From Candidatus Iainarchaeum sp. (lineage in GTDB: Archaea > Iainarchaeota > Iainarchaeia > Iainarchaeales > DTGL01), in contig JAPLVS010000079.1 in assembly GCA_026396995.1 (NCBI GenBank), forward strand, positions 1 through 53,817: a DNA stretch of 53,817 nt, read 5' to 3'. The notes under the pieces are model-generated. The model did not search any database. It had not been told where the DNA came from and saw nothing but the letters and a program-made list of their open reading frames with translations. The position numbers and the translations under genes are program-made. Within the stretch, counting starts at the first letter, position 1; each line of letters begins with the position of its first letter. Shown here one piece after another: positions 8,252 to 50,616 of this stretch.

Positions 8252-8330
8252 AAAGCCCCTGGCTGGACTTTGTTTTCAGGGGAAGCGAGCCCTGATTATG
8301 CTTTTTTAATCCTTGAAGCACTTTTTTTGC

Positions 8331-25090: not shown

Positions 25091-25098
25091 GTTTACCA

Positions 25099-25362: not shown

Positions 25363-25507
25363 TTTGCTCCCACAGAATAATGCATTAACAGCAATAAATT
25401 CTTTTCTATACGGCCCAAAGCCGTTTTATGGCAACCATTGCAGTTCCGGGCAATCAATTCTTTTCTATGCGGCTTAAGGCCGTTTAATGCCGTTATTGCC
25501 TTTTTGC

Positions 25508-25840
25508 CTACTTTCTCCTGTTCATCACAGTGTTTGTTCCCCACACTATGACTGCAAGGAAGTTGAATGCCATAAGGACATAGAAAAACACGTAAAGCGA
25601 GGCTGTCATATAGCCCCATTTTATGACAAGCAGGTAAACCAGGACACCGCTGATTACAAGCGTCAGGTTGCCTGCCCCGAGATAGCCGCGGACAGTGGTG
25701 AAAATAGTGAAGGTGAGCAATACCCGCATCAGAAGGTTCGCTATCGGGAAGAAAAACATTATCACAGGCGGCAAAAGGCACAACACCAGGAAACCGAGGA
25801 GAATCCACAAAATAAGCATTTTACCATGCCTCCGCTGCAT
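25508..25840 (-). CDS. small 4-TM membrane protein (hypothetical)
   Basis: 110 aa, with ATG at 25840 or 25819. Confidence 0.55.
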   Translation of the reverse strand: MQRRHGKMLILWILLGFLVLCLLPPVIMFFFPIANLLMRVLLTFTIFTTVRGYLGAGNLTLVISGVLVYLLVIKWGYMTASLYVFFYVLMAFNFLAVIVWGTNTVMNRRK

Positions 25841-25863
25841 TCAAGAAAACCATTTTTCCCATA

Positions 25864-26373
25864 TCATCGCCCCATGGGCCTCTGCGGCTGTGCAGGCATC
25901 GGCCTTGCACCGCCAGGCCCCCCGCCTGGAGCGCCACCTGGGCCTCCGCCCTGGTGCATCATTGCGCCAGGCTGCACCGGCATGCCCTGGCCTCCGCCCA
26001 TCTTGTGCATCTCATTTGCTGCCTGCAGTTCATGGGCTCTCCTGGCATATTCGGTGGCATCCATTTCCGGATGCTCCGACTTCCCTCCGCCCCCCATATT
26101 GCTGACAAAGAAGAAGTCAACCAAAACTCCTGAAATGCCGAGAGTGAGAAGTGTGTAAAGGATGAAAATTCCGCCGAAAAACTTCCAGTAATCGAACAAT
26201 ACAAACCAGCAGATGCCGCCTATAAGCGCATATGAAAGTGGGCTCTTGCCCAGGTGCGTGAACACAAAGGAAACCACTGTCAGGAGCGCGAAAATCTTCA
26301 ATGCCAGGTTGAGGTCGTTGAACATCTCGCCTATGAACAGCACTGCTGTCATTGCGCCGACAAATGACTGCAT
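25864..26373 (-). CDS. 4-TM membrane protein with Gly/Met/Pro-rich C-terminal tail
   Basis: 169 aa, ATG start. The tail is 'SNMGGGGKSEHPEM...HKMGGGQGMPVQPGAMMHQGGGPGGAPGGGPGGARPMPAQPQRPMGR'. Confidence 0.65.
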   Translation of the reverse strand: MQSFVGAMTAVLFIGEMFNDLNLALKIFALLTVVSFVFTHLGKSPLSYALIGGICWFVLFDYWKFFGGIFILYTLLTLGISGVLVDFFFVSNMGGGGKSEHPEMDATEYARRAHELQAANEMHKMGGGQGMPVQPGAMMHQGGGPGGAPGGGPGGARPMPAQPQRPMGR

Positions 26374-26492: not shown

Positions 26493-29400
26493 TTATTCTT
26501 CCGGCCCTATACAGGTTTTTCCTGGCAAAAGCGATAACTCGAAATCCGTCACGCCAAGCTTTGCGCCCTTGAAGTCCTTCAATGCCTTGGGGTTCCACCA
26601 GAAAGAGCTCTTCGAGCCAGAATTTGTCACGCAGACGCTTCCCTCTCCGACCATGTCAAGGATCCTTTCGACAGATGCAATCGGGTCGCTGTTGCCTTTC
26701 GAATTGTTCGCCATCCCCGTGATGCCCTTGGCTTCGACTGTTTTTATTTCCCCGGAATCAGGGGACATGAAAGTGCATCCGGAATCCGCGGTTACCGAAT
26801 AGGCTTTTTCAAGCGGGGTGTAGAAAATCGAGTAAAGGTACAGGGTGCCGCTGTAGGCAACCGCATCCCAGGAAAGCTTGTAGGACTTGTCGCCGGCGCG
26901 CGAATCCGCGTATGAATCGAACACTTCCCTTATCGGAACTCCTGAAAAGTCCGCGCATTTCCCAAGCCCTGTCCAGAACGAAAGGTTGTTGCCTGCAATG
27001 GCAGGCTGCCCGCCCTCAACGAAAGTGAACTGCGCGTTAAGTGCCTTCCCTTTCTCGCCTGTCGCCTTCAATATTACCGGCGTCGCATAGCTTGGCGAGA
27101 ACACAAGCAAAGGCTCCGAACCCTGCACTTCAACCGCAAGGACATTGCCTCTTGTCGCAGCCGAGCTGTTCAACTGCTTTAAGTCCTGCTGTTTCTTTGT
27201 GCTCATTGTCGCCAGCGCCTTTGAAGCGCTTGAGGTCGTGGTGCGCACATCATAGGGCGCGCTGCAAACCGGAATATCCTCGTTTTCGTTCACATAGTTC
27301 AGGCCGTAATCCTGCCTGCCGTTCTCTGTGTTCAAGCCGACCAAGCCGTCGAACGGCAGGTAATAGAATGCGGAATTCACAACCGGCTCGTTCACCTTAT
27401 AGAATTCAACTGTTATTTTTCCCTTGGGCTTGCCGTCAGCATAAAGGCTCCAGTTGCCTGAATTGAAATCGATTGTTATGTATACCTCGTACACTCCCGG
27501 TCCCGGCAGGATTGCATCATTGGCATATTTCTGCTTGAATTTCATTCTTTCGGCATCCCTGAAATAATCCGATAACTGGTTGTTTGAGCCCGAATAGAAC
27601 CATGAGGGCACGTCGAAGAAGGTTGTGCCTGAATAATATGCGGCGAAATCGCTCTGGAAGTCAGCACCATAGCCGTCCTTTACCAGCGTGGCCTTGAACT
27701 CAAACAAAGAGCGCAGGTAAGCGATTTTTTCAGCCTCTGTCGACCCCTGCCATCCTGAAGGCCAATTAATGTTATTATTTTTTATCAATTCTCCGACGCC
27801 CGGTATTGTCTTATCAATGAAATAGAGCAGTGAGGCCCTGCCCTCTATTTGTTTGGTTGAAAGCGGCAGCCAGCAGTCGGTTGTGGCGGCGGTATTGAGG
27901 AATCCGACTGCCAATTGAGTGTCATCCTTATCACCAGGGGCGGCCTCTTCAATTGTTGCAACCGCGAAATAAGGTTCGATATTGCTTTCAGCCAGGTTTT
28001 CGAAGGAGCAGGACATCTGTTCACTTGCATTTGCCCCTGCTGTTTTCGTTTCCTCACAGCTCTCATTGTACGAATCGCCTCTTGCAAGCGTGATTTTTAT
28101 TTTTACGCTTTGGCTTTGCGTTGTTTTGTTTTCGGCACTCACAATTATCGTGGCCTTGTCCGCTTCGCTGCTAAGCGTTTGGGATATGGCGCTCAAACCG
28201 ACTGTATTGCTGCTGACTGCATGGGTGCTCTTTTCCTTGTTGGTTTTTACCAGGTAATCCGAGAGCAGGAATGTGTTCGGGTTCGGCGGGCACTGCAGCG
28301 AATAACCGTTTGCGCTGAGGAATTCATCGATTTTTTTGATTCTTTTGCTCAATGCAATGCTGAACTGTGTGGCGTCGCAGTAAACCCCGTTTTTGTTTGT
28401 TGCATCACAGTCGCTTGCCGCAATCCCTTTGCCTTCTGCCCAGCCCCAGTTGAATTTCACTCTTGGCCTTGCGTCTTTTCCAGTAATTCCAATCTTAGAG
28501 CCATCAACGCAGGAATAAAAGTCCTCGAGCGGAGGAAGCTCAAAATCCACGCTTTCTTTCGTTTCAAATTTCAAATGGAATGCTTGGGAGTATGTGCCTG
28601 TTGAATCTGGAATGTTGAACGGCCCGAAGTTCGGCTCGGTGGTTGAAAATTCCGGCTTTTTGTGGGTTACGTCTCCGTGGATGTGCTCAGTTGCGCTTAC
28701 CTTTAATACGCCGTAGCTTTCAATGGCAGACGCTGATTTCGAATCGTTTTCCAAATCTATTGCAATGGTCTCTTCTTTGTCAGAAATAACCAGGCTGGTG
28801 TTTGAAGTGTTTTGGATTGCCTTGAACGGAACGTCGAACAGCTCAAGGGTTTTCAGGTCGCCGCCAGCGAGGTTAACGACATAGTCATCGAAGATAGGGG
28901 AAACAGACACAATGTCGCATTGTGCCCCCTGGGTTGAAAGCCAATAGAACAAAGCTATCACCGCGGCTGCGGCTGCTACTCCCCAGCATGGCGGCCCACA
29001 GGTTAGGCCCAACAAAGTCAGGCTTATGTCCGAGGCTGCAACTGCACTGTATGCCGAAATTGCCGGGGCTATGCCTGCAACCAGCAGCGCCGGGTCATCG
29101 ATTTTGCTTTTTTGCCCGACAGTTGTCTGCATTACTTTATTTAAAACGCATTCTTTTGGAAGTTTCTTTGTGTCCTTACAGCTTTTGCACTCGGTGGTAT
29201 GGACTGTCACTGCTTCCATAAGCATGCTGTTCTTCAGTTCAACCGTGTCCTTCCAGTTCGTGTCTGCGCTGAGGAGCGCTTCGTACCTGTTCAGTGCGAA
29301 CCATTCGCCTGTTTCCGGTTCCACCAATAAATCGATTGTGCGCACGTTGCGGAAGGAAGTGTTTGAAAGCCTTGCCTTTACCGGTATTCCGTATAAGCCA

Positions 29401-32400: not shown

Positions 32401-33602
32401 GTGACAGCATAGGCGCCGGCGTCATACAGCCTGAATACCGCCAGCCCGGCATTCTCCCCAGTATTCTTTTCGTCTATGGTTTTTCCGGCCTGGTCTGAAA
32501 GGATTACTGTTGCGTTCGCAATTGCCTGCCCGCTGCCTTTGTCCTGCACTTTCACTGTTATCGTGCCCTTGACTGTTTTCGAAACAACCAGGGTTTTTTC
32601 AAGTGTGACGCCTTTTTCAATGACAATGTTTTTGAATTCTGCGATGTCCACAAGGACATATTCCCCGTTGCTGTCTATGAAGGCCGCATTATATGTGCCA
32701 GTGGGCAGTTCAGGGAAGCTTATTATGCTGTAGCCCTGGCTTGATGCAGGAATTTTGTCGCCGTCCTTTTCAAGGACAATTGTGAAGTCTTTGCCTGTCA
32801 GGGCTTTGCCGTCAGTGCCGGTTATTTTGAACCTTGCGGCGCCTTTCGGCTTCTCTATTTTCTTCAGCACTATTACCTGGGTGCCGTCGCCGCTGAAGCT
32901 TCCTGTGCTTTCAGCTTCGTAGCCAGGCACATCCGCCGTGACTTTTATATCACTGCAGTTCTCGGGCAGTTCCACCTCTATCAGCCCGCTCCTGTTATCG
33001 TCTGATACAGAAAATTTGCGGCCGTCCTTGCACTCGATTGTTGCGGTGATGAGCAGGCCTTTTATCAGCCCGCCCTGCGCGTCCTCGAACCTGATGAGCC
33101 TTTTTTCAGGCGGCAGTTTCAGCAATTTGAGCGTGATGATTTCCTTGATGGCTGTTGCCCCGACCGAATAGGTTTTCTGGAATGCCTGGTAATCAGGGTC
33201 TTTCACTGAAACCTTTATGCTTGAATTCTGCGGCACCAAAAATGAAATTTTCCCCTCAGGGGAGGTGTTTATGTCTTTTGGGCTTTTGCCGGCATCGATT
33301 GAAACCGTAAGGTTTGCAATCTGCCTGTCGAGGTCGTCCCTGAAAATGAACACAGCGTTAACGTCTTTCTGCAAAGAAGTGCAGTCCTGAGGGCATGATG
33401 CCGCGGATTCGCCTGCCTGGCAGCTGCCGTCCCCGCAGGACACTGCGGGCTGTGTGAAAAAGAAGAATGCGGCAATCGCAACAATTGCAAGCGCGATTAT
33501 TATTATCGGGGGAAAGCCTATTTTTTCCTTGAGGTTCGCATAGGATTCGCCTATCGTGAAACTGAGGTCCTCAAGGTTTTCTTTCACTGGCATTTTTTCC
33601 AC
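26493..33602 (-). CDS. giant membrane-anchored surface protein, paralog 1 (2369 aa)
   Basis: Uninterrupted 7.1-kb ORF (GTG 33602 or ATG 33593, GGAG upstream). N-terminal TM helix 'PPIIIIALAIVAIAAFFFF'. It has repeated carboxypeptidase-regulatory-like beta-sandwich units, e.g. 'GTITVKVQDKGSGQAIANATVILSDQAGKTIDEKNTGENAGLAVFRLYDAGAYAVTAKKDG'. It shares the motifs YCDATQFSIAL (28350-28382) and FYYLPFDG (27346-27372) with the other two giants. Confidence 0.9.
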   Translation of the reverse strand: MEKMPVKENLEDLSFTIGESYANLKEKIGFPPIIIIALAIVAIAAFFFFTQPAVSCGDGSCQAGESAASCPQDCTSLQKDVNAVFIFRDDLDRQIANLTVSIDAGKSPKDINTSPEGKISFLVPQNSSIKVSVKDPDYQAFQKTYSVGATAIKEIITLKLLKLPPEKRLIRFEDAQGGLIKGLLITATIECKDGRKFSVSDDNRSGLIEVELPENCSDIKVTADVPGYEAESTGSFSGDGTQVIVLKKIEKPKGAARFKITGTDGKALTGKDFTIVLEKDGDKIPASSQGYSIISFPELPTGTYNAAFIDSNGEYVLVDIAEFKNIVIEKGVTLEKTLVVSKTVKGTITVKVQDKGSGQAIANATVILSDQAGKTIDEKNTGENAGLAVFRLYDAGAYAVTAKKDGNVNEGYFPASADVNDLNVEITLSLQKITADLLGRAVVRVKDEDGIPVRDAKVMFRYKATGAIVPLSGETDYVLTDADGNAEFYLGPIEKEIFAYALKYPAQGGSAAGAKKIDPLALNEFDVQIVIGNSSLAIKTMDSSGAILPETYFEAFDQDNVSVTGGKVPITSGELTYSIKADKKIYLVFSKTGYLDYQTESFQLWPEETFPITAIMRRQGEILQPLAEFKGAFENGVKAESLRAGKTYELKFTLTFPNNSELSSAGFHFRAGEKQSLDEEQIYITKVNAPNSSSVVLGRTYTPPKGEAAEEPATDIAKWANAEWLAPSSGTYNVSIEVWVKEATYPNSKLAFYYRAWSVKDSNIMRTPYDAALGGNSSVAAKDGLYAEAFSQIFFEGSKPFCGKKFCIMGEWLYDKQEDIFREKPYSMLVLGDYNYIFTLVNNSKESYNELRFVLKNVNGDEEKQDLKVKSFIFYDANKAYSAQTIEDFTFSLANLGNFTYSKDINFNIAVSPRNIADTQFLVQVIGDKQVVFEEKTDFRITSKNEMVLEATPAEIAPFAEASLKVKAKAKDGGAAIAGALVKITRGAPDGLYQVFSKLTGSTGEATFKIPASVPLTKIKIEGEKTGFVPKKIEITVGKDTIGFAPKTLSSALQTTGKTEETLSVTFTNNSGTEFTIKSAALKGNFKGILNEEAVASYLDSWKNAKIGANSSQEMALLKTVLSINAEDYMKGNETLKGELEVSIWSQKFFAEYAVSIPVTITVSMGGLPDNAPCVNIEGVDVPEWDATTANNRASTEFDIYNVCTKSGQKTDVKNLQAMLEWAGDSKKAGIIELTIFNADGASVTEVLKAGEWITFWPEMGKDTFGSFHAILTFTPKTGYINETSKFNILFDAETATDKGMQKINNGKVKISASILALNLDDCISMPGAGEKVELAADKEEVTFELDATACKADVSVQLCTGDPYCKGGTQEGGIRLTPMEFTLKASSPKQTVTVYREDIPGLYGIPVKARLSNTSFRNVRTIDLLVEPETGEWFALNRYEALLSADTNWKDTVELKNSMLMEAVTVHTTECKSCKDTKKLPKECVLNKVMQTTVGQKSKIDDPALLVAGIAPAISAYSAVAASDISLTLLGLTCGPPCWGVAAAAAVIALFYWLSTQGAQCDIVSVSPIFDDYVVNLAGGDLKTLELFDVPFKAIQNTSNTSLVISDKEETIAIDLENDSKSASAIESYGVLKVSATEHIHGDVTHKKPEFSTTEPNFGPFNIPDSTGTYSQAFHLKFETKESVDFELPPLEDFYSCVDGSKIGITGKDARPRVKFNWGWAEGKGIAASDCDATNKNGVYCDATQFSIALSKRIKKIDEFLSANGYSLQCPPNPNTFLLSDYLVKTNKEKSTHAVSSNTVGLSAISQTLSSEADKATIIVSAENKTTQSQSVKIKITLARGDSYNESCEETKTAGANASEQMSCSFENLAESNIEPYFAVATIEEAAPGDKDDTQLAVGFLNTAATTDCWLPLSTKQIEGRASLLYFIDKTIPGVGELIKNNNINWPSGWQGSTEAEKIAYLRSLFEFKATLVKDGYGADFQSDFAAYYSGTTFFDVPSWFYSGSNNQLSDYFRDAERMKFKQKYANDAILPGPGVYEVYITIDFNSGNWSLYADGKPKGKITVEFYKVNEPVVNSAFYYLPFDGLVGLNTENGRQDYGLNYVNENEDIPVCSAPYDVRTTTSSASKALATMSTKKQQDLKQLNSSAATRGNVLAVEVQGSEPLLVFSPSYATPVILKATGEKGKALNAQFTFVEGGQPAIAGNNLSFWTGLGKCADFSGVPIREVFDSYADSRAGDKSYKLSWDAVAYSGTLYLYSIFYTPLEKAYSVTADSGCTFMSPDSGEIKTVEAKGITGMANNSKGNSDPIASVERILDMVGEGSVCVTNSGSKSSFWWNPKALKDFKGAKLGVTDFELSLLPGKTCIGPEE

Positions 33603-33680
33603 TCGCTCCTGCTGCGGCAGGCAAAGCCATGCCCTGCCATAATTTTCTCGCCCAAAGTTAATAATCCTTTCTGAATGCGG

Positions 33681-42656: not shown

Positions 42657-42780
42657 CTTGTTGACAGGCAGTTTTGTGCTGATTTTGTCTATTATTTCAT
42701 AATACCTGTCTTAAAGATGATAATACAGGTCTTTCAGAGAGCTTCCAAGTCCCATACATTCACCAAACCTTTATTCACTA

Positions 42781-42869
42781 ATATCAAAGGACAAAAATAA
42801 TCGCATAAATTTGTCCTTTGATAGCTATCAAAAGACATTTGGAAAATACCATTTAATGTCTTTTGATAT
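42781..42869 (-). promoter_or_regulatory. four-half-site palindromic element, copy 2 (reverse complement arrangement of copy 1)
   Basis: Plus strand: TATCAAAGGAC-N20-GTCCTTTGATA-GC-TATCAAAAGAC-N21-GTCTTTTGATA. Read on the minus strand it has the same half-site order as copy 1. It ends 125 nt upstream of the paralog-2 start codon and lies 86 nt downstream of the paralog-3 stop. Confidence 0.75.
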
Positions 42870-42954
42870 AATATTAATTAATCGCTTTATGTTTTTATTC
42901 CTTTTTCTTTTTTCCAATGCGGTTTTTTCCCTGTGTTGCTTCTTTAATCCTGCC

Positions 42955-45900
42955 TTACTCTTTTTCTTCGGCTGCAGGCGAAATGAATGTGTTGGTAAGA
43001 TCCGGAATGAAAACATTCCAGCCCAGGTCCATCACCGCAAGCGTTCCGCTCGAATCCTTTTTGCCCTTGTTGACGCACACTTCGCTGCTTTCTATCCTGT
43101 CAATATAATCCTGTATTGCGGCAACCCTTCCTTTCGGGTCAGTGAGCGAAACAGCGCCGCCGCTTGACGTTGTTGTCTTCGAGGTTGACGATGCCTCGCC
43201 TTCAAATGGCTTTGCGGTTATTATTGTGGGCTGTTTTGCGCACAATAATTCCAGCCTGAAATTGCTTGAATTGGCAGGCAGGAACACAACCGAGTTCCAG
43301 GGCGAAACATTGCTGAACATTACCTTGCCTGCGCGCACCTTTTCAGCCCAGCCCTCACAGAAAGAATCGCCTTCGAATTCCTGGAAGGAATCTGACCTGC
43401 CTTCTATCCCGAGCTGCCACCATACCAGCAGTTCCTGCATTTTCCCGATGTCAGAATAATCGCTCGGGGACATCCTATAGTATATTGTGTTGTTCTTGCC
43501 TTCATCCCATTCCGCGGAGACCGCAGCCGGATACGAGGGCGTGTAATTGAATGTGCCTTTCTTGAGGTTTATGGAAAGGACTGCGCCTGACCTTGTCTTG
43601 TCATATTTGTCGGAGTAAGACGGAGTAAGGGTTACTGTTCCAGGCATCCTGTTGACCGCGGCGAACCATTTGCCCTGCGATTCGTTCGATAAGAATATCT
43701 TGTCTGTAATGTCGGCATTGAAGCCCACGCCGTAATCGGCTGAAGTGCTTTCCTGCCCGACCTCGCCGTCGAATGGCAGGTAGAAGAACGGGTTGAAATC
43801 GTAATACGCCTTTTCTGTTTCGCTGAGCTGCTTCAGCGAGGCATTCAGCGCCATTTTTGCCACTATCTGTTCGAGCACAATCGAATAGTTGTCAGAGGAA
43901 AAGTCGATTGAAACAACCGGTTCCGCCCTGTAATAGTATTCGCCTGTGTCAGGGAGGGCAGGCATCATTTCGTTAACGCCCTCAAAGCCTTTCTCCTCGC
44001 TGTACGAATCGTACAATTCGAACTTTATCTGGTCTGCGCTGAAAGCCGTGTCCTTGTAGAATGCAGTGAAGTCGTTAACGAAAGTTTCAGAATAATTGTC
44101 CTTGATGAGCCTTGCTGCCGAAATCTCCGTGCCGGCCAGTTTTTCAAGGTCCTCGTCTATGGCATTCGCCGCATTCTCCCTTATGAAGTTTTCCCTGCTT
44201 TCGCTCAATCCTTTTTTGTTCCTTATGCCGATGCTGAATTCGACAGAATCATTAATTTTCTTGAGGAATTCAACCCATGCCGCCTGTGGCGCAGGAATCG
44301 TGGCCTCCCCTATCTGCACCTGGAGGGTTGGGTTTGCTTCCCCTGTTCCCTGGGCTGCGCGCCATGCGCTGATAAGGTCTGTGTGCATCTTGTTGTATTC
44401 CTCGAAAGACACGATATAGGAATCGCTGCCGAGATACGAATCGCCTGAGGATTCCTCGAGTTCGAAGATGCTTCCCCTGAGCTGGTTCCAGATTTCGTTC
44501 GCTCCGGCGCCCGAGCTTTCCATGGCGCTGTCAATGCTTTTCGGCAGTATCGCAATGACCCCTGCCGAATCTATGTCTTTCCCGTAGCAGCTGCCGAGCG
44601 CAACAGAGAACATTGAGGGCGTATTTGAAATGGACCCGCTCCGATCATATTCGTTTGTGGTGGAAAGGTCGCTTATCCATTTTGTGAGTTCGCTGATAAG
44701 CGATTTCTTGGTGCATTTCACCGCGCTTGCCATCAGTTCCGGTTCGAGCACGTATGTGCCGCCCTCGTTTTCAGTGAGGAACAGCAGGTAATCCTTGCCT
44801 GAAACATTGTCGTGCACTTTCAATTGTTTCTTGTACAGCCTGTAGAGTTTTCCCGGAGTGCTGTTTATTTCATTCACAAGGCCGTCATCCTGCCCTATTG
44901 TTGCCGCAATCTCCCTTAACTGCGGGTCATCCTGCAATTGTATTGAGAGCTTGTCTGCCATTTCCCTTATTTCGTTGAATTTCCTGCTCAGTGCGAGCGA
45001 GAACTGCGTGGCATCGCAGAAAATGTAATCCGTGTTTGCGGTGGTTGTGCCTTCAAGCAGCGGGTCGCATGCGTCCGCCGCAAGTTCCCCTGCGCGCCAG
45101 TTGAATTTCAGCCTGTCAAAGCCGAGTTCCTTGAATGTGGCGGCGCCTGTCTCCTGGCTTGTGCAAGCGGTATTTGAAGCCCAGTCAGGCACAGGCCTTT
45201 TTTCCTGCAGTTCGTTTTCGCAGCCGTCAGCGTATGCCTGCATTCCGCGGTTCAATACAGTGAGCTGGACAGGCATTGTGACCTCTGTTGCCTCGGTATT
45301 ATAGAACGCCCTTTTCACTGTAAGCGTAATGGATGTGTCGATTACCGCGCATTTTGTGGCCATTTCGCCCCTGTCCACTGTCATTACGACATGGTGGCCG
45401 CCGTTCGTGATATTGAATGAAAGTTTCACCCCGCTTTCGCCGTCCTCGAACAAAGCCGGCTTTACTGCCTGTATTTTGTCAGTTGAGCCGCAGTACTGGT
45501 TTTCTGCAGCCTCGTCGTTGGAAAGCGCGTAAGGCATGACCATTTCCCTTTTAGGGACTTTTTCTTTCCATGCAAACCTGTTTTCAGTGAAATGCTGGTC
45601 CTTGATTTCCTTCCATTCGTCGCCCCAGCTCGGGAGCACGAAATAATTCTTGTTGAAAATGCATTCGTCCGGCATTTTGTCTGCGTCACCGCTGTTCATG
45701 AGCATGCCAGCAACGCCGACCCATGCGAACGGGTCCTCGAATGTGACTTCCCTCGGAATGTATTTCTGCTGGCCGTTAGGGTCAGTCATCGGAATGCTTA
45801 TTATTCCCGGCGAAATAACAGAATTCACGAGTTTCGAAAACACCACCCTTATCTGGCCGAGTCTCTGTTCAAGCGGCCCCTCGAGCGGAATCGACATTTG

Positions 45901-48900
45901 CTCTGTTATGTCCGGGTTATATTTCAGGCCGAATTCCAGCACTTCGATGTTTTCGTTTTCGTTTAATTTCTGCACGACCGGAGTGCCGCTCCAGACGCCG
46001 GCTATAAGAGGGCATGTTCCTTTGTTGTCTGTGCCTCCGCTTTCCGGAGTGTAGCAGTGGAACCTGTCGGCTGTAAGCGAACTCAGCCTGTAGCCCAAGT
46101 CAACGCACTTGTTTATTATCCTGCCTGCGCTCTTCTGCCAGCCGATGAATGTGGCCGTGAAATAAATCGGCTCGACTGTCGGCTTGCATTTCTCGTCTAT
46201 TTCCTCGTACCTTAAAACCTTGACCTTGACTGTGCCGATTTCCTTGTAGAAAGAGGACTCGCTTTCCAGTTTCGCCCTTACCTTTACATCGAACCTGCCT
46301 ATTTTCGAGGTCGCGGTAACAACAGCTTCGGCTGATTCCCCTGGCTCTATCTCCAGGGACGGTTCCTCTATGTCAAGGCCTGCCCTCACTGATAAATCAA
46401 CCTGCACTGTTTCCTTGCAGGAATTTTCAAGCTTGAACGTGCCCTGTTCGGCTTCACTGTCCTCTGACTGCCAGGAATAGGTCTGTGAGCTCCAGGGCGA
46501 ATAGCCGTAAGTGCTTCCCCAAAATGACTGGTAGTTAGTGCTCGGGTAAGTGTACTGGCTCTGGCTTGTGCTGGTGGTTTCAGCATACGGGTCTGTGCCG
46601 AAATAATCCTGGACTGTGCCCCAGCCCTGGTTGTAAGGCTGCGTCCTCAGCTCTATTTCCTCGCCTTCAGTCACAATCGTCAGGCATTCGGCAAGCCTGT
46701 TCACCAGAAGCGAAACAGCCATCTTCGCCTTTATTTTTTCTGTCCCTTTCTCTGAAACATGCTTTGCCCTGAACGTGATTTCAGGCGCGGATTCTGCGCT
46801 CTTTGTTTCGGATGATGGCGTGAACGTAAGCGTTATCGTGCCCTCAAAGCCGGCCGGAATTGTGTCAGTGATTTTTGTGAAAGCCTCTCCGAGCACAATG
46901 TCGGTTTTTTCCTCTTCGCTGAAAGAATCGCTTGAAAGCCTGAATTCGCCTGCCGGGCTTTCGTCCGCCCAGGAAACCGATGCCTCAAGGTCTTTCAATG
47001 CAACATCCTTGCTGTTTGCAGTGCAGTCGTTCTTTATGTCAATGGAAATCTTTTTGGCAGTTCCATAAGTGCTGAACGTCCATTCGCTTGGGTCTATTGA
47101 AAGGCAGTCCTTGGCGTCTGTTTCCCCGCCAAGCAATATCCTGAACGCAATGCCGAGGTCCGAGACCCATTTCCTTGCGAATTCCGTGTTTTCCACTTCT
47201 ATTGAGAGCTGGCTGTCAAGGCTCACCTGCTTTTCGGTGTTGATGCCCTGCTGGGTCAATTCCACTTCAAGTGTAACCGCATGCGCTTCCGCGCCTGCCG
47301 CCAGTTCCATCCCGACAATCTCTTCAGGCGATTTAATTCTTATGTACTTGGCTAATTCTGCCGAAAGCGAAATCGAAGAAACCTTCAATGGGATGGCGGT
47401 GCTGTTTACAATCGCAAACTTTAGTGTCCCGCTCTGCCCCGAATCAGCCATCATGTCAAGCGTGACTTTCGACGGGAGGAGCGAAAGGATTTTGTCGTCG
47501 ATCAATATTTCCCTGTCCGCGGGCTTGTAGCCAGGCTTTCTCACTGAAACCTTGAGCTTGGAGCCTGCCTTCGGCGCCTCTATTTCCAGGGCGAACGCGC
47601 CCTCGGAATCCGTGATTCCGGAACCGATTTGGACGCCGTCGAGAAGCACTGAAATTGTTGCGTCCGGTAGCCCTATCAATTCTGTCTTGGTTCCAGTCCC
47701 CCCCTCTTCTTCCTCGGAGGCTTCAGTTGTCGTTTCCTCGTAAACCCAGAACACCACCTGGTTGTCGAGCATCGGGACGATTTCATTGGGAGCCATTCCG
47801 ATACTCATTTTCTTCCCGGGCGTGACTTCCACCGCGATTGCCTGCTGCATTTCAGCGGCCTTGTCTGATTCGATTGAAATCGCAAGGTTGCTTACCCCGC
47901 TTTTCACTGTATCGAATTCAACCCAGCCTGAAACAGTCTTGTATTGGTCGAAGGTGCCGATGTCAGCAGAGAATTCAAAATCGTTCGCCTTTCCTTCCTT
48001 TGTGCCGCCCAATGCGTCCTTGATGCTGTAATCCCTGAACTTTAGGCCTTTTTCCTTGTTTGAAATCTTTATTTTCGCGTTTTTGGTCGAGCCTGCGGCC
48101 TGCCTGTTTATTGTAAAGTATAATTTATACGAAGAGGACATGTTTGCGCTTGCCTTGTCGAAAACCGAAACCTTTGAATTGTCCGAAAGGTCCTCTATTG
48201 AAACAATCCTGCAATAGCCTTCGATGCAAAGGTTGACTTCGCCGACAGAATAAACCACGTCGTAGGTTGCCGCATACAGGCCCTGTTTTCCTGCAGCGCT
48301 CGCAGAGCTTCCAAGGACGCTGTCAAGCGGGTCCCTGTCAAAAGAGCCTTTTGCGCCCCAGCCCCTGTAAGAAATTTTGGCCATGTCGCCTTCTGTTGCC
48401 ATCGCGTCGATTGCAACTTCGGCTGTGGCGTTGAAAACCCCGAATGCAGGCATTCCTTTCTGCCCAAGCGTCCACTCGATGTTCGCCCATTTCGCTGGCT
48501 CGCCGGCGCCTGCCGCATGCGCAATGTCGGTGCCTGAACCGCTTGGAGGCGAATAACTCAGGGCCCTCACAGTGCTTCCTGCCGCGCTTTCAATTGTTCC
48601 AATTGCAACAATGTCGTCGCCTACATTATTCTCCTGCCCTTCGTCGTCCTTGCCTGCCCTTACATGGATGCCTGCGGTTGCATATCCCTTGTTCGGCACA
48701 ATAACCCGCAATTTTGCAGTGTAAACCTGCCCGCTTTCAGCGGAATCCTGCACTGCCGCATCTTCTTTGAATAAGCCGTCGAATTTCACTTCAAGTTTCT
48801 GTGTTTCCTCAAGCATTACCGCTTCAATGTTTGTTGTCACGCCGTTAACCGGACTGAAGAGCCCTGTTACAAAAGGCATGTATCCAGGCAATTCAACCAC

Positions 48901-50616
48901 AAAGAAAGGCCTTTGGATTGTCATAATGCTCATTTTTGCAGTGCCGTCGCTGTCTGAAGTTGCAGTGCCTATCGTTGTGCTGTCCACAATGTTCACCGCC
49001 CTGATTGTTGCGCCAGGCATAGGCTGCCCTGAGGCGTTCATTACAGTGAAAGCGAAACTGCCTTTCGCGATTTTAAGCAGTATTTCCTTTTTTTCAGGCG
49101 CAGCCTGGCCTTCCAGGATCTTGAAGCTCGTGCTGTTCCCTGAAATCCTTTCTGCAAGGCTTGCCTTTACATAGTATTCGCCGGCAGGCACTGAAGGAAA
49201 GTCTTTCTCACCGTTGGCGCCTGTGAAGCCCTCGATGTTTGCTGTCTGGTCGATAAATTCGCCTGTCGCATAAAACAATTCGATTTTCACGCCTTCAAGC
49301 GGCGCCTTGGAGGTCGAATCTTCCCTCACTGTGACAATCAATGCGCTCGGGGCCTGCTCTTCAGCCGGGTCGTAATAGAATTCATAGGCTGTTTCCTTCG
49401 GCTGCACTGTCTGCGGCGAGCTCCCTGAAAGGCTTACAGCATCCAGGCCTTTTTTTGCGTAAAGGTTGTATGACTTGTTTTCAGGCACTTTTATCTGGCA
49501 TGCGCCGTCCTTGCCTGTAGTGCACGGCGACCCCGCGCTCTTGTTCGGCGAAGCCTTTTCCTTCAGTTCAAGGGTGATGCCTTCCAGTTTTTTGCTTTTG
49601 TTGTCTTTTTCGAAAACAACGAATTTGATTGTGAAAGATAATGTGTCCTCGACCTGCAGTGTGAAGGTCACCTTCTTTGATGCCGCGACAGTTTTTTCCT
49701 CTTCGGAGGCAATTTCCTTGTAATTGCTGTGGCAGTTAACGCTTGCAGTGTAAGTTCCTGGCACGACATTTTCGAATTTTGCAGACCCGCTTGATTCGAC
49801 CTGTATCGGGCCGATGTCTTCCCCGCCCTCGGCCGCTTCAAGCGAAGCATCGCATCTTTTCGAAGAATCGATGGCTGTGCCGTCAGCCTTTTCAACAAAC
49901 ACGGTTGCGGTGCCGTACTCGATTTTTTCAGTTACTTTTATCTCGATGTTCCCTGACTCGCTGCTTACAACTTCGCTGAAAGAGTCGACCTCGAAATCGC
50001 TGACATCCTCTACATCCGCAACAGTGACATCGAATTTGCCGCAGTTGCTTGGGATTTCGTCAAGAGGGTATTCCCCGCTTGTTGTCTGGAGGCTGGACTT
50101 GCTGTATCCAGTATTGCCCTCACAGGAAGCGCTGAAAGTCACTTTTTTTGTGAGCAGGCTGTTGTCGCTGCCCACAAACCTCACTGTTTTCGAGAAAGAT
50201 GTTATTGCAGGCTCGATTGCAAGCGAAATCGACCTTGAGGTTGTTTCGGCAATCACTGCTGTTGTATCCTTGCTGACCTCGCCATAAGTGGCGGTTATTT
50301 TCACGGATTTCCCGATGGTTATTGTGAATTCGGCTTCGCCCTTGGCATTCGTGGTTTTTTCTTCGATTTTCTGGCCGTTCTCTGTGACCAGCACTGTCGC
50401 CCCGTTAATCGGCTTTTTGTCACTATCTGTGACGGTCACTGTAAGGGTGCCGTCGCCTGCCGGAATAATAAAGCCGAACAGGCCCGGGGCAATCAAGTAA
50501 ATTGCGCCCACAATCAGGAGAATTACCAGGAGGAAAAACAAAGGCAACGGAATGCCTTTTTCCTCAAGCCAGTCAGAAAAAGCAACCCATTTTTCTTTCA
50601 GCGCATCCAAGGCCAT
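42955..50616 (-). CDS. giant membrane-anchored surface protein, paralog 3 (2553 aa)
   Basis: Uninterrupted 7.7-kb ORF, ATG start with GGAGTGGTG upstream. TM helix 'LPLFFLLVILLIVGAIYLIAPGLFGFII'. Repeated units include 'DGTLTVTVTDSDKKPINGATVLVTENGQKIEEKTTNAKGEAEFTI'. FCDATQFSLAL is at 44988-45024 and FFYLPFDG at 43765-43791. Confidence 0.9.
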   Translation of the reverse strand: MALDALKEKWVAFSDWLEEKGIPLPLFFLLVILLIVGAIYLIAPGLFGFIIPAGDGTLTVTVTDSDKKPINGATVLVTENGQKIEEKTTNAKGEAEFTITIGKSVKITATYGEVSKDTTAVIAETTSRSISLAIEPAITSFSKTVRFVGSDNSLLTKKVTFSASCEGNTGYSKSSLQTTSGEYPLDEIPSNCGKFDVTVADVEDVSDFEVDSFSEVVSSESGNIEIKVTEKIEYGTATVFVEKADGTAIDSSKRCDASLEAAEGGEDIGPIQVESSGSAKFENVVPGTYTASVNCHSNYKEIASEEEKTVAASKKVTFTLQVEDTLSFTIKFVVFEKDNKSKKLEGITLELKEKASPNKSAGSPCTTGKDGACQIKVPENKSYNLYAKKGLDAVSLSGSSPQTVQPKETAYEFYYDPAEEQAPSALIVTVREDSTSKAPLEGVKIELFYATGEFIDQTANIEGFTGANGEKDFPSVPAGEYYVKASLAERISGNSTSFKILEGQAAPEKKEILLKIAKGSFAFTVMNASGQPMPGATIRAVNIVDSTTIGTATSDSDGTAKMSIMTIQRPFFVVELPGYMPFVTGLFSPVNGVTTNIEAVMLEETQKLEVKFDGLFKEDAAVQDSAESGQVYTAKLRVIVPNKGYATAGIHVRAGKDDEGQENNVGDDIVAIGTIESAAGSTVRALSYSPPSGSGTDIAHAAGAGEPAKWANIEWTLGQKGMPAFGVFNATAEVAIDAMATEGDMAKISYRGWGAKGSFDRDPLDSVLGSSASAAGKQGLYAATYDVVYSVGEVNLCIEGYCRIVSIEDLSDNSKVSVFDKASANMSSSYKLYFTINRQAAGSTKNAKIKISNKEKGLKFRDYSIKDALGGTKEGKANDFEFSADIGTFDQYKTVSGWVEFDTVKSGVSNLAISIESDKAAEMQQAIAVEVTPGKKMSIGMAPNEIVPMLDNQVVFWVYEETTTEASEEEEGGTGTKTELIGLPDATISVLLDGVQIGSGITDSEGAFALEIEAPKAGSKLKVSVRKPGYKPADREILIDDKILSLLPSKVTLDMMADSGQSGTLKFAIVNSTAIPLKVSSISLSAELAKYIRIKSPEEIVGMELAAGAEAHAVTLEVELTQQGINTEKQVSLDSQLSIEVENTEFARKWVSDLGIAFRILLGGETDAKDCLSIDPSEWTFSTYGTAKKISIDIKNDCTANSKDVALKDLEASVSWADESPAGEFRLSSDSFSEEEKTDIVLGEAFTKITDTIPAGFEGTITLTFTPSSETKSAESAPEITFRAKHVSEKGTEKIKAKMAVSLLVNRLAECLTIVTEGEEIELRTQPYNQGWGTVQDYFGTDPYAETTSTSQSQYTYPSTNYQSFWGSTYGYSPWSSQTYSWQSEDSEAEQGTFKLENSCKETVQVDLSVRAGLDIEEPSLEIEPGESAEAVVTATSKIGRFDVKVRAKLESESSFYKEIGTVKVKVLRYEEIDEKCKPTVEPIYFTATFIGWQKSAGRIINKCVDLGYRLSSLTADRFHCYTPESGGTDNKGTCPLIAGVWSGTPVVQKLNENENIEVLEFGLKYNPDITEQMSIPLEGPLEQRLGQIRVVFSKLVNSVISPGIISIPMTDPNGQQKYIPREVTFEDPFAWVGVAGMLMNSGDADKMPDECIFNKNYFVLPSWGDEWKEIKDQHFTENRFAWKEKVPKREMVMPYALSNDEAAENQYCGSTDKIQAVKPALFEDGESGVKLSFNITNGGHHVVMTVDRGEMATKCAVIDTSITLTVKRAFYNTEATEVTMPVQLTVLNRGMQAYADGCENELQEKRPVPDWASNTACTSQETGAATFKELGFDRLKFNWRAGELAADACDPLLEGTTTANTDYIFCDATQFSLALSRKFNEIREMADKLSIQLQDDPQLREIAATIGQDDGLVNEINSTPGKLYRLYKKQLKVHDNVSGKDYLLFLTENEGGTYVLEPELMASAVKCTKKSLISELTKWISDLSTTNEYDRSGSISNTPSMFSVALGSCYGKDIDSAGVIAILPKSIDSAMESSGAGANEIWNQLRGSIFELEESSGDSYLGSDSYIVSFEEYNKMHTDLISAWRAAQGTGEANPTLQVQIGEATIPAPQAAWVEFLKKINDSVEFSIGIRNKKGLSESRENFIRENAANAIDEDLEKLAGTEISAARLIKDNYSETFVNDFTAFYKDTAFSADQIKFELYDSYSEEKGFEGVNEMMPALPDTGEYYYRAEPVVSIDFSSDNYSIVLEQIVAKMALNASLKQLSETEKAYYDFNPFFYLPFDGEVGQESTSADYGVGFNADITDKIFLSNESQGKWFAAVNRMPGTVTLTPSYSDKYDKTRSGAVLSINLKKGTFNYTPSYPAAVSAEWDEGKNNTIYYRMSPSDYSDIGKMQELLVWWQLGIEGRSDSFQEFEGDSFCEGWAEKVRAGKVMFSNVSPWNSVVFLPANSSNFRLELLCAKQPTIITAKPFEGEASSTSKTTTSSGGAVSLTDPKGRVAAIQDYIDRIESSEVCVNKGKKDSSGTLAVMDLGWNVFIPDLTNTFISPAAEEKE

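What the first reader, a model, noticed from the sequence alone, without database searches (positions are those of the whole stretch)
26493..50616. Three tandem paralogous giant ORFs (about 7,900 codons, ~44% of the window)
The three consecutive minus-strand ORFs share one architecture:
- a cytoplasmic N-terminal stub and a single TM helix;
- a long array of ~80-100-aa units fitting the carboxypeptidase-regulatory-like beta-sandwich pattern (G-x-[IL]-x-[VL]-x-V-x-D...G-x-P-[IL]-x-G-A-x-V...D-x-x-G-x-[AF]-x-F...G-x-Y);
- a conserved C-terminal half.

Conserved blocks I aligned by eye:
- [YF]CDATQFS[IL][AE]L at nt 28350-28382, 35460-35492 and 44988-45024.
- F[YF]Y[LM]PFDG[LE]VG at 27346-27372, 34548-34574 and 43765-43791. 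Here even the DNA is similar (CCGTCGAAYGGCAKGTARWAGAA).
- KW[AM]N[AIF]EW.
- GLYA[EA][AT][FY].
- a C-terminal [SD][VI]CV...FWWNP-like block.

Overall identity is otherwise low, so the triplication is old rather than an assembly artefact. No catalytic motif was recognised. The CDATQFS and FYYxPFDG blocks are not signatures of any family I know.
Basis: partly seen in the sequence, partly recalled or inferred. Interest (0 to 1): 0.9.

Follow-up and report, generated by a model that had tools for sequence, protein, structure and literature searches.

The report
Giant surface-protein trio of Iainarchaeota
Three neighbouring genes for huge membrane-anchored surface proteins are ancient sister copies kept in the same order across a whole phylum of tiny archaea (Iainarchaeota), and they end in a large, confidently modelled domain that matches no known family or solved structure, so their function is open.

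Summary
Three minus-strand ORFs (C 42955-50616, B 33681-42656/42755, A 26493-33593) are collinear paralogs: 23-26% identity over ~1300 N-terminal residues, up to 29% over the C-terminal ~700. The array is not an assembly artefact. Tandem sets occur in dozens of independent assemblies, including the complete genome of archaeon GW2011_AR10 and the Ca. Iainarchaeum andersonii single-cell genome. A tree of 113 C-terminal domains splits by gene position, so A, B and C are old orthogroups in a fixed order. The conserved order is pilin-like gene, C, B, A, then four small membrane proteins. An exhaustive profile search finds 804 clusters, mostly 2300-2600 aa, named at best 'carboxypeptidase regulatory-like domain-containing protein'. 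The C-terminal ~700 aa has no Pfam, NCBIfam or PDB sequence match. Its AlphaFold model (pLDDT 91.6) matches PDB only through an inserted Ig-like sandwich. New features: a conserved cytoplasmic N-terminal motif, a glycine-zipper or hydrophobic-hairpin segment ~200 aa before CDATQFS in A and B but never in C, and co-varying distant cysteines. Best reading: a heteromeric, N-terminally anchored surface spike. Its exact role (cell contact or membrane insertion versus envelope scaffold) is inferred, not shown.

The parts
42955..50616 (-). Giant gene C (2553 aa), first of the trio. It is the C-type orthogroup: one N-terminal TM helix, no internal hydrophobic segment, divergent C-terminal head.
   Evidence: C-type orthologs lie upstream of B-type genes in L058, L062/L069 (AR10), L054, L070, L077, L080 and L087. 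No mid hydrophobic segment in any C-type.
33681..42755 (-). Giant gene B (B-type orthogroup). The ORF listing starts it at TTG 42656 (2991 aa). The conserved N-terminal motif and an ATG at 42755 lie upstream, interrupted by an in-frame TAA at 42711-42713.
   Evidence: L058 has GAG (Glu) at the TAA position. B-clade placement.
26493..33593 (-). Giant gene A (2366 aa from ATG 33593), A-type orthogroup. In all loci this type sits directly upstream of the small membrane proteins.
   Evidence: all 44 genes adjacent to S1 fall in the A clade. Start inferred from orthologs L063 and L002.
33456..33512 (-). A: N-terminal transmembrane anchor (aa 31-49, Kyte-Doolittle 2.8), preceded by a ~30-aa cytoplasmic stub.
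42552..42623 (-). B: N-terminal transmembrane anchor. It begins with the family motif (I/V)PSF and follows the conserved cytoplasmic motif ...YYxxxDKIxxxLPVNKLTDAIDK.
   Evidence: In the fetched loci the motif occurs only at the N-termini of giants.
50464..50547 (-). C: N-terminal transmembrane anchor.
29283..33440 (-). A: extracellular stalk (aa ~55-1440). It is a collinear chain of beta-sandwich domains, 5 of them recognisable as CarboxypepD_reg/prealbumin-like. It holds KWANAEW (31431-31451) and GLYAEAF (31233-31253).
28938..29090 (-). A: internal hydrophobic hairpin (aa 1505-1555, ALLVAGIAPAISAYSAVAA...LTCGPPCWGVAAAAAVIALFYWL). The second helix is flanked by Cys1539 and Cys1562.
   Evidence: An equivalent segment lies ~200 aa upstream of CDATQFS in 25 of 34 full-length homologs.
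26496..28535 (-). A: C-terminal head domain (aa ~1690-2369) with CDATQFS (28350-28382), FYYLPFDG (27336-27368), SVCV (26628-26639) and FWWNP (26589-26603). No Pfam, NCBIfam or PDB sequence match, and no global PDB fold match.
   Evidence: (pLDDT 91.6, pTM 0.83).
27900..28205 (-). A: Ig-like beta-sandwich inserted in the head (aa ~1800-1901). This is the only part with PDB structural neighbours. It is absent from P0004 and P0005, and C-types carry unrelated sequence at this position.
37125..38303 (-). B: eight tandem six-cysteine modules (C-x7-13-C-x4-6-C-x11-18-CC-x3-C, aa 1452-1844). The Cys-rich region continues to aa 2138 (nt 36243). This insertion accounts for most of B's extra length.
36048..36170 (-). 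B: Gly-rich amphipathic segment (LLDLGGSLLGTLNSSINSLIGIDNPWMGAVVGAIAGTLYNY) at the position of A's hydrophobic hairpin.
33684..35669 (-). B: C-terminal head domain (aa ~2330-2991) with CDATQFS 35460-35492 and FYYMPFDG 34539-34571.
42958..45189 (-). C: divergent C-terminal head domain (aa ~1810-2553) with FCDATQFS 44989-45021 and FFYLPFDG 43756-43788.
50885..52552 (-). Upstream 555-aa Cys-rich protein with a type-IV-pilin-like N-terminus (NERA|FNLFTALLALILIV). It is conserved directly upstream of the C-type gene in AR10 and L070.
   Evidence: No Pfam hit.
52619..53817 (-). Further upstream gene X, which runs off the window end. A homolog lies upstream of the pilin-like gene in L070.
24737..26373 (-). 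Four small polytopic membrane proteins: S1 25864-26373, S2 25508-25840, S3 25102-25362, S4 24737-25099. They lie immediately downstream of A and keep this order in 45-49 of 68 loci, including AR10 and Ca. I. andersonii.
   Evidence: No Pfam family.

Best explanation
The three genes encode distinct, anciently diverged subunits (C-type, B-type, A-type) of a lineage-specific cell-surface apparatus of Iainarchaeota (formerly Diapherotrites, DPANN archaea).

Architecture, shown directly by the sequence:
- a short conserved cytoplasmic N-terminal motif;
- one signal-anchor transmembrane helix;
- a collinear, non-repetitive stalk of about 1400 residues made of beta-sandwich domains with paired cysteines;
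- a variable insertion zone;
- in A and B only, a glycine-zipper or hydrophobic-hairpin segment;
- a ~700-residue C-terminal head of a fold with no known relative.

Inferred:
- The whole chain after the first helix is outside the cell.
- A, B and usually C work together as a hetero-oligomeric spike rooted in the membrane. The four small membrane proteins encoded just downstream are likely membrane partners, and the pilin-like protein encoded upstream may be one too.
- The stalk holds the conserved heads tens of nanometres from the cell.

Most speculative step, which I nevertheless commit to: the hydrophobic Gly/Ala-rich segments of A and B are membrane-active elements. They give the spike a second membrane attachment, most likely in the membrane of a partner cell, so that the complex mediates cell-cell contact rather than being a passive coat.
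For: Shown:
- Paralogy and collinearity of A, B and C.
- An N-terminal TM helix in nearly all homologs, and a conserved N-terminal motif found only on giants.
- CarboxypepD_reg, SpaA and Ig-like domains in the stalk, whose only PDB relatives are surface adhesin, pilin and NOMO-type sandwiches.
- Family size: 804 clusters, typically 2300-2600 aa, with the domain at the very C-terminus.
- Presence in about 60 GTDB species assemblies, almost all labelled Iainarchaeum or unclassified archaeon. These include AR10 and Ca. I. andersonii.
- Tandem sets in nearly every locus that is long enough.
- Position-specific orthology: 44 of 44 genes next to S1 are A-clade, and the order B then A holds in 23 loci.
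- C-type genes lie upstream of B-type genes in seven or more loci.
- S1-S4 are conserved in order in 45-49 loci.
- The pilin-like gene is conserved upstream in three divergent lineages.

Evidence that the head is extracytoplasmic:
- C-types have the homologous head but no second hydrophobic segment.
- Distant cysteines co-vary. C2216 and C2364 are both present in 100 sequences, both absent in 8 and discordant in 5. A four-Cys cluster is gained or lost as a unit.
- Cys content is 1.6% in the head against 0.75% in cytoplasmic neighbours.

Evidence for a membrane-active segment:
- It is present ~200 aa before CDATQFS in 25 of 34 full-length homologs, with Kyte-Doolittle scores up to 3.5.
- Its typical form is GILGTYAALGAIAGGLLGGIFG(D/E)DPC, and it is often Cys-flanked.
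- Single family members hit Pfam Gly-zipper_Omp and C19orf12.

Context from the literature: giant, mostly extracytoplasmic proteins of another DPANN phylum (SPEARE) are proposed to mediate host contact (PMC6642349, read).
Against: - No experiment or expression data bear on function.
- Conservation along A-type orthologs is fairly even (0.3-0.6 identity) and lengths are tightly clustered. This fits a structural machine or coat better than an adhesin in an arms race. No hypervariable receptor-binding region is seen.
- Iainarchaeota have been argued to be possibly free-living (statements in PMC6642349 and PMC10936187), which weakens a host-contact role.
- A single ~22-residue hydrophobic segment flanked by two external domains is topologically awkward. 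In some orthologs (for example L008, KD 3.5) it looks like a genuine transmembrane helix, which would put the head in the cytoplasm.
- The sequon test for surface exposure was inconclusive (observed/expected 1.22 stalk, 0.98 head, 1.15 cytoplasmic controls).
- Hetero-oligomerisation is inferred only from co-occurrence and fixed gene order.
- Foldseek output shows only the best 50 matches, dominated by the Ig-like insert, so sub-domain similarities could be hidden.
Confidence: 0.45

Rival explanations
1. Envelope scaffold. The giants are the structural surface layer or canopy of Iainarchaeota: membrane-rooted stalks with lattice-forming heads. This would be functionally like tetrabrachion or SlaA/SlaB (comparison from my own knowledge), with A, B and C as distinct lattice components.
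For: - Phylum-wide presence and fixed gene order next to housekeeping genes.
- Even conservation and a narrow length range.
- Disulfide-type Cys covariation.
- Stalk of Ig-like domains.
Against: - No S-layer family hit in Pfam or NCBIfam.
- The anchor is N-terminal. No C-terminal TM helix or sorting signal is present.
- The head is among the better-conserved parts, whereas outer S-layer faces usually vary (my own knowledge).
- The internal glycine-zipper segment has no role in this model.
- Three ~260-330 kDa subunits would be a costly coat for a ~1.2 Mb genome cell.
Confidence: 0.25
2. Two-pass membrane protein with a cytoplasmic head. The internal hydrophobic segment of A and B is a true second transmembrane helix, so the conserved C-terminal domain is intracellular. 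The proteins would then couple a huge external loop to an internal function, as proposed for SPEARE proteins.
For: - Strongly hydrophobic single segments in some A-types (KD up to 3.5).
- In SPEARE proteins the most conserved part is the cytoplasmic C-terminal region behind a TM helix (PMC6642349).
Against: - C-types carry the homologous head with no second hydrophobic segment.
- B-types have only amphipathic Gly-rich segments.
- Distant cysteines in the head co-vary, and the head contains an Ig-like sandwich.
- No nuclease, ATPase or other cytoplasmic-type domain is detected.
Confidence: 0.1
3. Giant exo-enzyme or binding protein. The head is a new hydrolase or lectin held away from the cell for polymer degradation or nutrient capture.
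For: - The only Foldseek neighbours are Ig-like accessory domains of GH2 glycosidases and transglutaminases.
- Several invariant Asp, Arg and aromatic residues are present.
- The head is beta-rich.
Against: - The matches cover only the ~110-residue inserted sandwich (query TM-score 0.15 or lower).
- There is no catalytic-domain match by sequence or fold.
- No conserved His, Ser, Glu or Cys catalytic pattern is evident.
- Three obligatorily co-occurring paralogs are unusual for an enzyme.
Confidence: 0.08
4. Artefact or mobile DNA. The three copies are a mis-assembly of one gene, or cargo of a virus or mobile element.
For: None beyond the a-priori suspicion raised by tandem large genes.
Against: - Only 23-29% protein identity and no long DNA repeats.
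- The same tandem order occurs in dozens of independent assemblies, including a complete genome and a single-cell genome.
- GC content is uniform.
- Flanking genes are housekeeping genes: PolB, HisRS, tRNAs.
- No PHROG hits.
Confidence: 0.01

Closest known systems
SPEARE proteins of Nanohaloarchaeota (Hamm et al. 2019, PMC6642349)
   Same: Both are giant (thousands of aa), membrane-anchored, mostly extracytoplasmic proteins of DPANN archaea. Both are built largely of adhesion-type beta domains, take up several per cent of a small genome, and have a conserved terminal region beyond a hydrophobic segment.
   Different: No serine protease, laminin-G, toxin-like or restriction-endonuclease domain is detected here. 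The anchor is N-terminal. The conserved head appears to be external. Three ancient paralogs occur in a fixed order with dedicated small membrane proteins. The family was found almost only in assemblies labelled Iainarchaeum or unclassified archaeon, plus a few labelled Micrarchaeota, and none labelled Nanohaloarchaeota. No direct sequence comparison with a SPEARE protein was run.
Archaeal stalked S-layer systems (tetrabrachion of Staphylothermus; SlaA/SlaB of Sulfolobales); comparison from my own knowledge
   Same: Large glycoprotein-type surface proteins, a membrane-rooted stalk carrying a distal canopy, and two or more different subunits encoded side by side.
   Different: Those systems anchor through a C-terminal helix and have no internal glycine-zipper segment. 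There is no sequence or family match. Lattice formation is untested here.
Prealbumin-like / CarboxypepD_reg / SpaA-type stalk domains of bacterial surface adhesins and pilins, and the NOMO rod of the BOS complex (PDB 3phs, 2ww8, 9c7v)
   Same: The stalk units are of this fold family. PF13620 scores above its gathering threshold, and the stalk profile hits these PDB chains at E 2e-5 to 4e-4. The likely role is a rigid spacer.
   Different: The similarity covers only part of the N-terminal ~1050 aa. These families say nothing about the head, the hydrophobic segment or the N-terminal motif.
Internal, cysteine-flanked fusion loops of viral class I glycoproteins (Ebola GP2, ASLV Env) and glycine-zipper membrane peptides; analogy from my own knowledge
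   Same: A 20-25-residue Gly/Ala-rich hydrophobic stretch sits inside an extracellular chain. In A it is bracketed by cysteines. In many orthologs it is preceded by an Ala/Thr/Gln-rich stretch that looks helical.
   Different: No fold or sequence similarity to any fusogen was found. Foldseek gave only a generic Ig-like match to HAP2 domain 3 at E 1e-3. No heptad-repeat hairpin has been demonstrated. C-types lack the segment.

Membership tests
CarboxypepD_reg (PF13620) domain-containing proteins | Pfam PF13620 match above the gathering score | tested here: met
   A 48.3, B 113.5 and C 81.5 bits against a cutoff of 32.3. An in-house HMM finds 4-5 units per protein. This names only the stalk units, not the protein's function.
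SPEARE proteins (Nanohaloarchaeota) | Serine protease, laminin-G/adhesion and type III restriction-endonuclease domains | tested here: not met
   Pfam scans of A, B and C and of 42 C-terminal regions show none of these domains.
SPEARE proteins (Nanohaloarchaeota) | TM helix near the C-terminus with the conserved region in the cytoplasm | tested here: inconclusive
   A has an internal hydrophobic region. However, C-types lack one, and Cys covariation suggests an external head.
Archaeal S-layer proteins | Match to a known S-layer family, or a C-terminal anchor or sorting signal | tested here: not met
   No such Pfam or NCBIfam hit. The C-termini end in ...TCIGPEE...CIQPKSK and ...SPAAEEKE with no hydrophobic segment.
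Archaeal S-layer proteins | Forms a regular lattice and is among the most abundant proteins | not testable with these tools
   Needs proteomics or cryo-ET.
Type IV pilin-like proteins (applies to the upstream gene 50885-52552 only) | Class III signal: basic residue, then G/A, then cleavage before a hydrophobic helix | tested here: met
   RA|FNLFTALLALILIV in the window, KG|FTLFTALVAFILIV in AR10 and RG|FNLFTALVSFLLIM in L070. This was a regex and by-eye test only.
Type IV pilin-like proteins (applies to the upstream gene 50885-52552 only) | Match to a pilin N-terminal family model | tested here: not met
   No Pfam hit at E up to 1.
Membrane fusogens (viral class I-III, HAP2/fusexin) | Fold similarity to a fusogen ectodomain | tested here: not met
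   Foldseek against PDB gave only a ~110-residue Ig-like match to HAP2 domain 3 (E 1.2e-3). Nothing appeared with the high-confidence model or in BFVD.
Membrane fusogens (viral class I-III, HAP2/fusexin) | Internal hydrophobic fusion loop or peptide | tested here: inconclusive
   A segment of suitable composition is present in A and B types. Membrane activity is untested.
Glycine-zipper membrane segments (PF13488) | Pfam match | tested here: inconclusive
   One of 42 members at E 0.005, and one to C19orf12 at E 0.001. The GxxxG-type pattern is visible in many orthologs.

The most novel reading that the evidence does not exclude
The C, B and A giants, with the pilin-like protein and the four small membrane proteins, form an archaeal cell-to-cell contact and membrane-insertion machine. 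It would be a three-subunit spike whose internal glycine-zipper loops enter a partner cell's membrane. This would imply that Iainarchaeota, often regarded as possibly free-living, depend on physical coupling to other cells through a mechanism unrelated to any known fusogen or secretion system.
Probability: 0.15. Interest if true: 0.9.

Novelty: new variant of a known kind. Interest (0 to 1): 0.65.

Why it matters
How DPANN archaea build their surface and touch other cells is largely unknown, and no molecular component has been assigned for Iainarchaeota. This work defines a candidate:
- a gene cluster found in about 60 species-level assemblies, almost all labelled Iainarchaeum or unclassified archaeon, taking roughly 2% of a ~1.2 Mb genome;
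- three ancient, non-redundant giant subunits;
- a ~700-residue domain that is confidently modelled yet has no relative in Pfam, NCBIfam or the PDB;
- a conserved membrane-active segment.

It gives concrete targets for cryo-ET, metaproteomics and structure determination, namely the head, the glycine zipper, the N-terminal motif and S1-S4. It also defines a new domain family of at least 800 sequence clusters, currently mislabelled by a minor stalk domain.

Tried and rejected
- Word-indexed homolog search with A's C-terminus found only 6 fragments. The exhaustive profile search showed this was a sensitivity limit, not rarity.
- The first AlphaFold model, built from 9 sequences, was mediocre (pLDDT 62.8). 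It was replaced by a 42-sequence model (pLDDT 91.6).
- Foldseek against PDB twice and BFVD once gave only Ig-like sandwich matches.
- PDB sequence and profile searches of the head were empty. For the stalk they gave only generic adhesin domains.
- Pfam, NCBIfam and PHROGs gave nothing for the head, the pilin-like protein, S1-S4, and the 515-, 400-, 296- and 166-aa neighbours.
- The 515-aa neighbour looked HerA-like by eye. It has no conserved Walker A across 37 orthologs and no PDB or Pfam hit, so the idea was dropped.
- The N-glycosylation sequon enrichment test for topology was inconclusive.
- A class III (prepilin) signal on the giants themselves was rejected: there is no G/A at position -1, and the conserved motif is ...IDPIDK|xVPSF.
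- Looking up the window's own contig by exact protein failed for B and C.
- Literature searches found no description of this family. Youssef et al. 2015 is not held.
- The first GTDB scan, with an alignment that included C, failed for lack of a conserved stretch. It was redone without C.
Full report
**1. The observation**

The window carries three consecutive minus-strand ORFs: 26493-33602 (A, 2369 aa), 33681-42656 (B, 2991 aa) and 42955-50616 (C, 2553 aa). Together they make 7913 codons, 44.8% of the window.

Pairwise BLASTP shows collinear homology over the N-terminal ~1300 residues:
- A/B 26%, E 9e-76.
- A/C 23%, E 6e-51.
- B/C 23%, E 3e-57.

A second block covers the C-terminus (A/B 29% over 716 aa, E 2e-69). 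It is weaker for C.

The 23-nt DNA pattern occurs exactly three times against none expected. No long DNA repeats link the genes.

Pfam recognises only stalk-type beta-sandwich families, all in the N-terminal ~1050 residues: CarboxypepD_reg above threshold in all three, plus SpaA, Big_1, MG3/4 and SdrD_B. An iterated in-house HMM finds 4-5 such units per protein. The 'long array' is therefore really a collinear, non-repetitive chain of diverged sandwiches.

KWxNxEW and GLYA lie in this N-terminal part (aa ~700-790). The strongly conserved C-terminal block is ~700 aa, not half the protein.

**2. Organism and family**

A word-indexed search with A's C-terminus returned only six fragments, from Diapherotrites, Micrarchaeota and unclassified archaeal MAGs.

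An exhaustive HMMER search with a nine-sequence profile then found 804 clusters (at 50% identity) with E <= 1e-3, and 536 with E <= 1e-30. Most are 2300-2600 aa with the domain at the extreme C-terminus.

A motif-seeded scan of GTDB species representatives gave 175 confirmed matches. The best 80 fall in about 60 assemblies, almost all labelled Candidatus Iainarchaeum or uncultured archaeon. They include Ca. Iainarchaeum andersonii SCGC AAA011-E11 and the complete genome of archaeon GW2011_AR10.

The closest relatives share 65% (A, L063), 74% (B, L058) and 81% (C, L058) identity, with full synteny. The window therefore comes from an Iainarchaeota genome.

Its surroundings are ordinary chromosome: PolB, an M24 peptidase, HisRS, ribose-5-phosphate isomerase and five tRNAs, with even GC content. 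There are no PHROG hits.

The only source name found for a full-length member was 'carboxypeptidase regulatory-like domain-containing protein'; two partial members (P0002, P0005) are named 'hypothetical protein'. Full-text searches found no paper describing the family.

**3. The triplication is ancient and positional**

In the fetched loci, nearly every contig long enough carries two or three giants in tandem on one strand.

I built a neighbour-joining tree of 113 C-terminal domains and analysed it by gene position:
- All 44 genes that sit directly upstream of the small membrane protein S1 fall in one clade (A-type).
- 24 penultimate genes fall in a second clade (B-type).
- The order B then A holds in 23 loci.
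- A few lineages carry an extra A-type duplicate, for example I. andersonii with B, A', A.

The window's C belongs to a third, much more divergent orthogroup. It has full-length C-terminal alignments to genes lying upstream of the B-type gene in L058, AR10 (L062/L069), L054, L070, L077, L080 and L087.

A, B and C are distinct orthologous subunits whose order C, B, A predates the radiation of the sampled lineages. Mis-assembly is excluded.

**4. A larger conserved cluster**

*Downstream of A.* Four small polytopic membrane proteins lie immediately downstream on the same strand: S1 25864-26373, S2 25508-25840, S3 25102-25362 and S4 24737-25099. Homologs of them occur in 45-49 of 68 loci. In the two loci checked for order, AR10 and I. 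andersonii, they follow the A-type gene in the same order. They are not detectably related to one another or to any Pfam family.

*Further downstream.* Synteny also holds for a 296-aa Pro-rich coiled-coil protein, a 515-aa protein, a 166-aa coiled-coil protein and PolB. This may reflect general collinearity. The 515-aa protein has no conserved Walker A and no database match.

*Upstream of C.* A 555-aa Cys-rich protein has an N-terminus that reads like a type IV pilin class III signal:
- window: RA|FNLFTALLALILIV
- AR10: KG|FTLFTALVAFILIV
- L070: RG|FNLFTALVSFLLIM

It is conserved at ~30% identity directly upstream of the C-type gene in those loci. No pilin family model matches it.

**5. Anatomy of the giants**

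- **N-terminal motif.** A 30-45-residue cytoplasmic stub carries a family-specific motif, typically YYxLEDKYYxLLDKIxxxIPIYKIIDPIDK followed by xVPSF at the start of the helix. In the fetched loci it occurs only on giants.
- **Anchor.** One strongly hydrophobic helix (KD ~3) follows.
- **Stalk.** About 1400 residues with conserved Cys pairs. A stalk profile hits only prealbumin/Ig-like domains of Gram-positive surface proteins and NOMO.
- **Variable zone.** In B this holds eight six-cysteine modules (aa 1452-1844) and further Cys-rich sequence. In many A-types it is an Ala/Thr/Ser/Gln-rich stretch that looks helical by eye.
- **Hydrophobic segment.** It lies about 200 residues before CDATQFS and is present in 25 of 34 full-length homologs at KD > 1.5. 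It takes three forms:
  - In the window's A clade it is a two-helix hairpin with a CGPPC turn, and the second helix is bracketed by cysteines.
  - In other A-types it is a single glycine zipper, GILGTYAALGAIAGGLLGGIFG(D/E)DPC.
  - In B-types it is Gly-rich and amphipathic.

  C-types never have it.
- **Head.** About 700 residues.

**6. The head is a new domain**

- Sequence searches against PDB were empty, both by single sequence and by a 42-member profile.
- Pfam on all 42 members showed no shared family.
- NCBIfam gave nothing.
- With a 42-sequence alignment, AlphaFold2 gives a confident model of A residues 1661-2369 (pLDDT 91.6, pTM 0.83).
- Foldseek against PDB aligns only the ~110-residue Ig-like sandwich inserted at A ~1800-1901. 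Its neighbours are accessory domains of GH2 enzymes and transglutaminases, with query TM-score <= 0.15.

Two limits apply. Only the top 50 matches are shown, and no AlphaFold DB library was available.

**7. Topology**

C-types have the homologous head but only the N-terminal helix. Their head must therefore lie on the same side as the Cys-paired stalk.

In the head, distant cysteines co-vary across 113 sequences:
- C2216 and C2364 are both present in 100 sequences, both absent in 8 and discordant in 5.
- A four-Cys cluster is gained or lost as a unit.

Cys content is twice that of the cytoplasmic neighbours. This points to a disulfide-bonded, extracytoplasmic head in all three types.

The internal segment of A and B is then either a hairpin or a membrane-active element, not a single pass. 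The sequon test was inconclusive. A two-pass topology, as proposed for SPEARE proteins (PMC6642349), is not excluded for A-types that have a very hydrophobic single segment.

**8. Interpretation**

*Shown:* ancient paralogous, N-terminally anchored giant surface proteins in a conserved cluster.

*Inferred:*
- A, B and C act together. They co-occur obligatorily in a fixed order and have not been homogenised.
- The S1-S4 proteins are their membrane partners.
- The stalk acts as a spacer.
- The glycine-zipper segments provide a second membrane attachment.

I favour a contact or membrane-insertion spike (confidence 0.45) over an S-layer-like scaffold (0.25). The reasons are the conserved internal hydrophobic element, the conserved head and the N-terminal anchoring.

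Some evidence pulls the other way. Conservation along orthologs is even, lengths are narrow, and these archaea are reported to be possibly free-living.

Enzyme (0.08) and cytoplasmic-head (0.1) models are less supported. An artefact is excluded.

**9. Novelty**

Giant surface proteins in DPANN archaea are a known kind (SPEARE). This family shares none of SPEARE's defining domains. It has a head with no match in Pfam, NCBIfam or PDB, a three-orthogroup architecture and dedicated neighbours. It appears undescribed in the libraries and literature available here.

I rate it a new variant of a known kind, interest 0.65.

Noticed in passing
window 42711-42713 (minus strand), within 42656-42755: Giant B has an in-frame TAA at codon 15 of its real reading frame (ATG at 42755). 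The closest relative L058 has GAG (Glu) there. The first usable start downstream is TTG 42656, which would remove half of the conserved cytoplasmic N-terminal motif. This could be a real nonsense mutation, population heterogeneity or a sequence error. TAA is used as a normal stop by most genes in the window.
   Followed up: partly
window 42782-42868 and 23219-23305: A double-palindrome element of about 87 nt (TATCAAAGGACA-N18-TGTCCTTTGATA-GC-TATCAAAAGACA-N19-TGTCTTTTGATA) occurs twice. One copy is inserted between the TATA-like box and the start of B, and is absent from the same gap in L058. The other lies between the divergent 515-aa and 296-aa genes. The arms are conserved and the loops are not. 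There are 8 half-sites against 0.6 expected. It is absent from all 88 fetched loci and from viral contigs. It could be a small mobile palindromic element or a shared operator.
   Followed up: partly
window 37125-38303 (extending to 36243): B carries eight tandem six-cysteine modules (C-x7-13-C-x4-6-C-x11-18-CC-x3-C, ~45-55 aa each) followed by more Cys-rich sequence. No Pfam match. Similar Cys-rich sequence is visible in the B-type genes of L058 and L048.
   Followed up: partly
window 50885-52552: A 555-aa Cys-rich protein with a bacterial-style type IV pilin N-terminus (RA|FNLFTALL...). It is conserved upstream of the C-type giant in AR10 and in a 533-kb metagenome contig. No pilus assembly ATPase or prepilin peptidase is recognisable in the window.
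   Followed up: partly
window 25864-26373 and 24737-25099: The small membrane proteins S1 and S4 end in Gly/Met/Pro-rich low-complexity tails (for example GGGMGGDMGGMMGGMGGGGMGGPM). Their composition resembles the Gly-rich segments of some B-type giants (for example L054, FMGGGGGMGGMLGG).
   Followed up: no
loci L019, L032, L041, L025, L029, L034, L066 and others (orthologs of A): In many A-type orthologs the glycine zipper is followed by an invariant (D/E)DPC motif and then L.DYVINL. Asp-Pro bonds are self-cleaving in some secreted proteins (my own knowledge). The window's A lacks the DP, so this was not pursued.
   Followed up: no
window 21655-23202, 23432-24322, 19769-20269: A 515-aa protein, a 296-aa Pro-rich coiled-coil protein on the opposite strand and a 166-aa coiled-coil protein are syntenic with the giants in 36-38 loci. 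None matches Pfam or PDB. The 515-aa protein resembles a P-loop ATPase by eye but has no conserved Walker A.
   Followed up: partly
C-terminal head, alignment of 113 homologs (window A residues ~1888-1891 and ~2237-2246): Four cysteine columns, two close pairs about 350 residues apart, are gained or lost together in ~37-40 of 113 sequences. The window's A lacks them. They are either two extra disulfides or a four-Cys metal site in a sub-lineage.
   Followed up: no
window 8313-9026: An ORF next to tRNA-Thr has a weak LAGLIDADG-like match (E 6e-4, below the Pfam cutoff).
   Followed up: no
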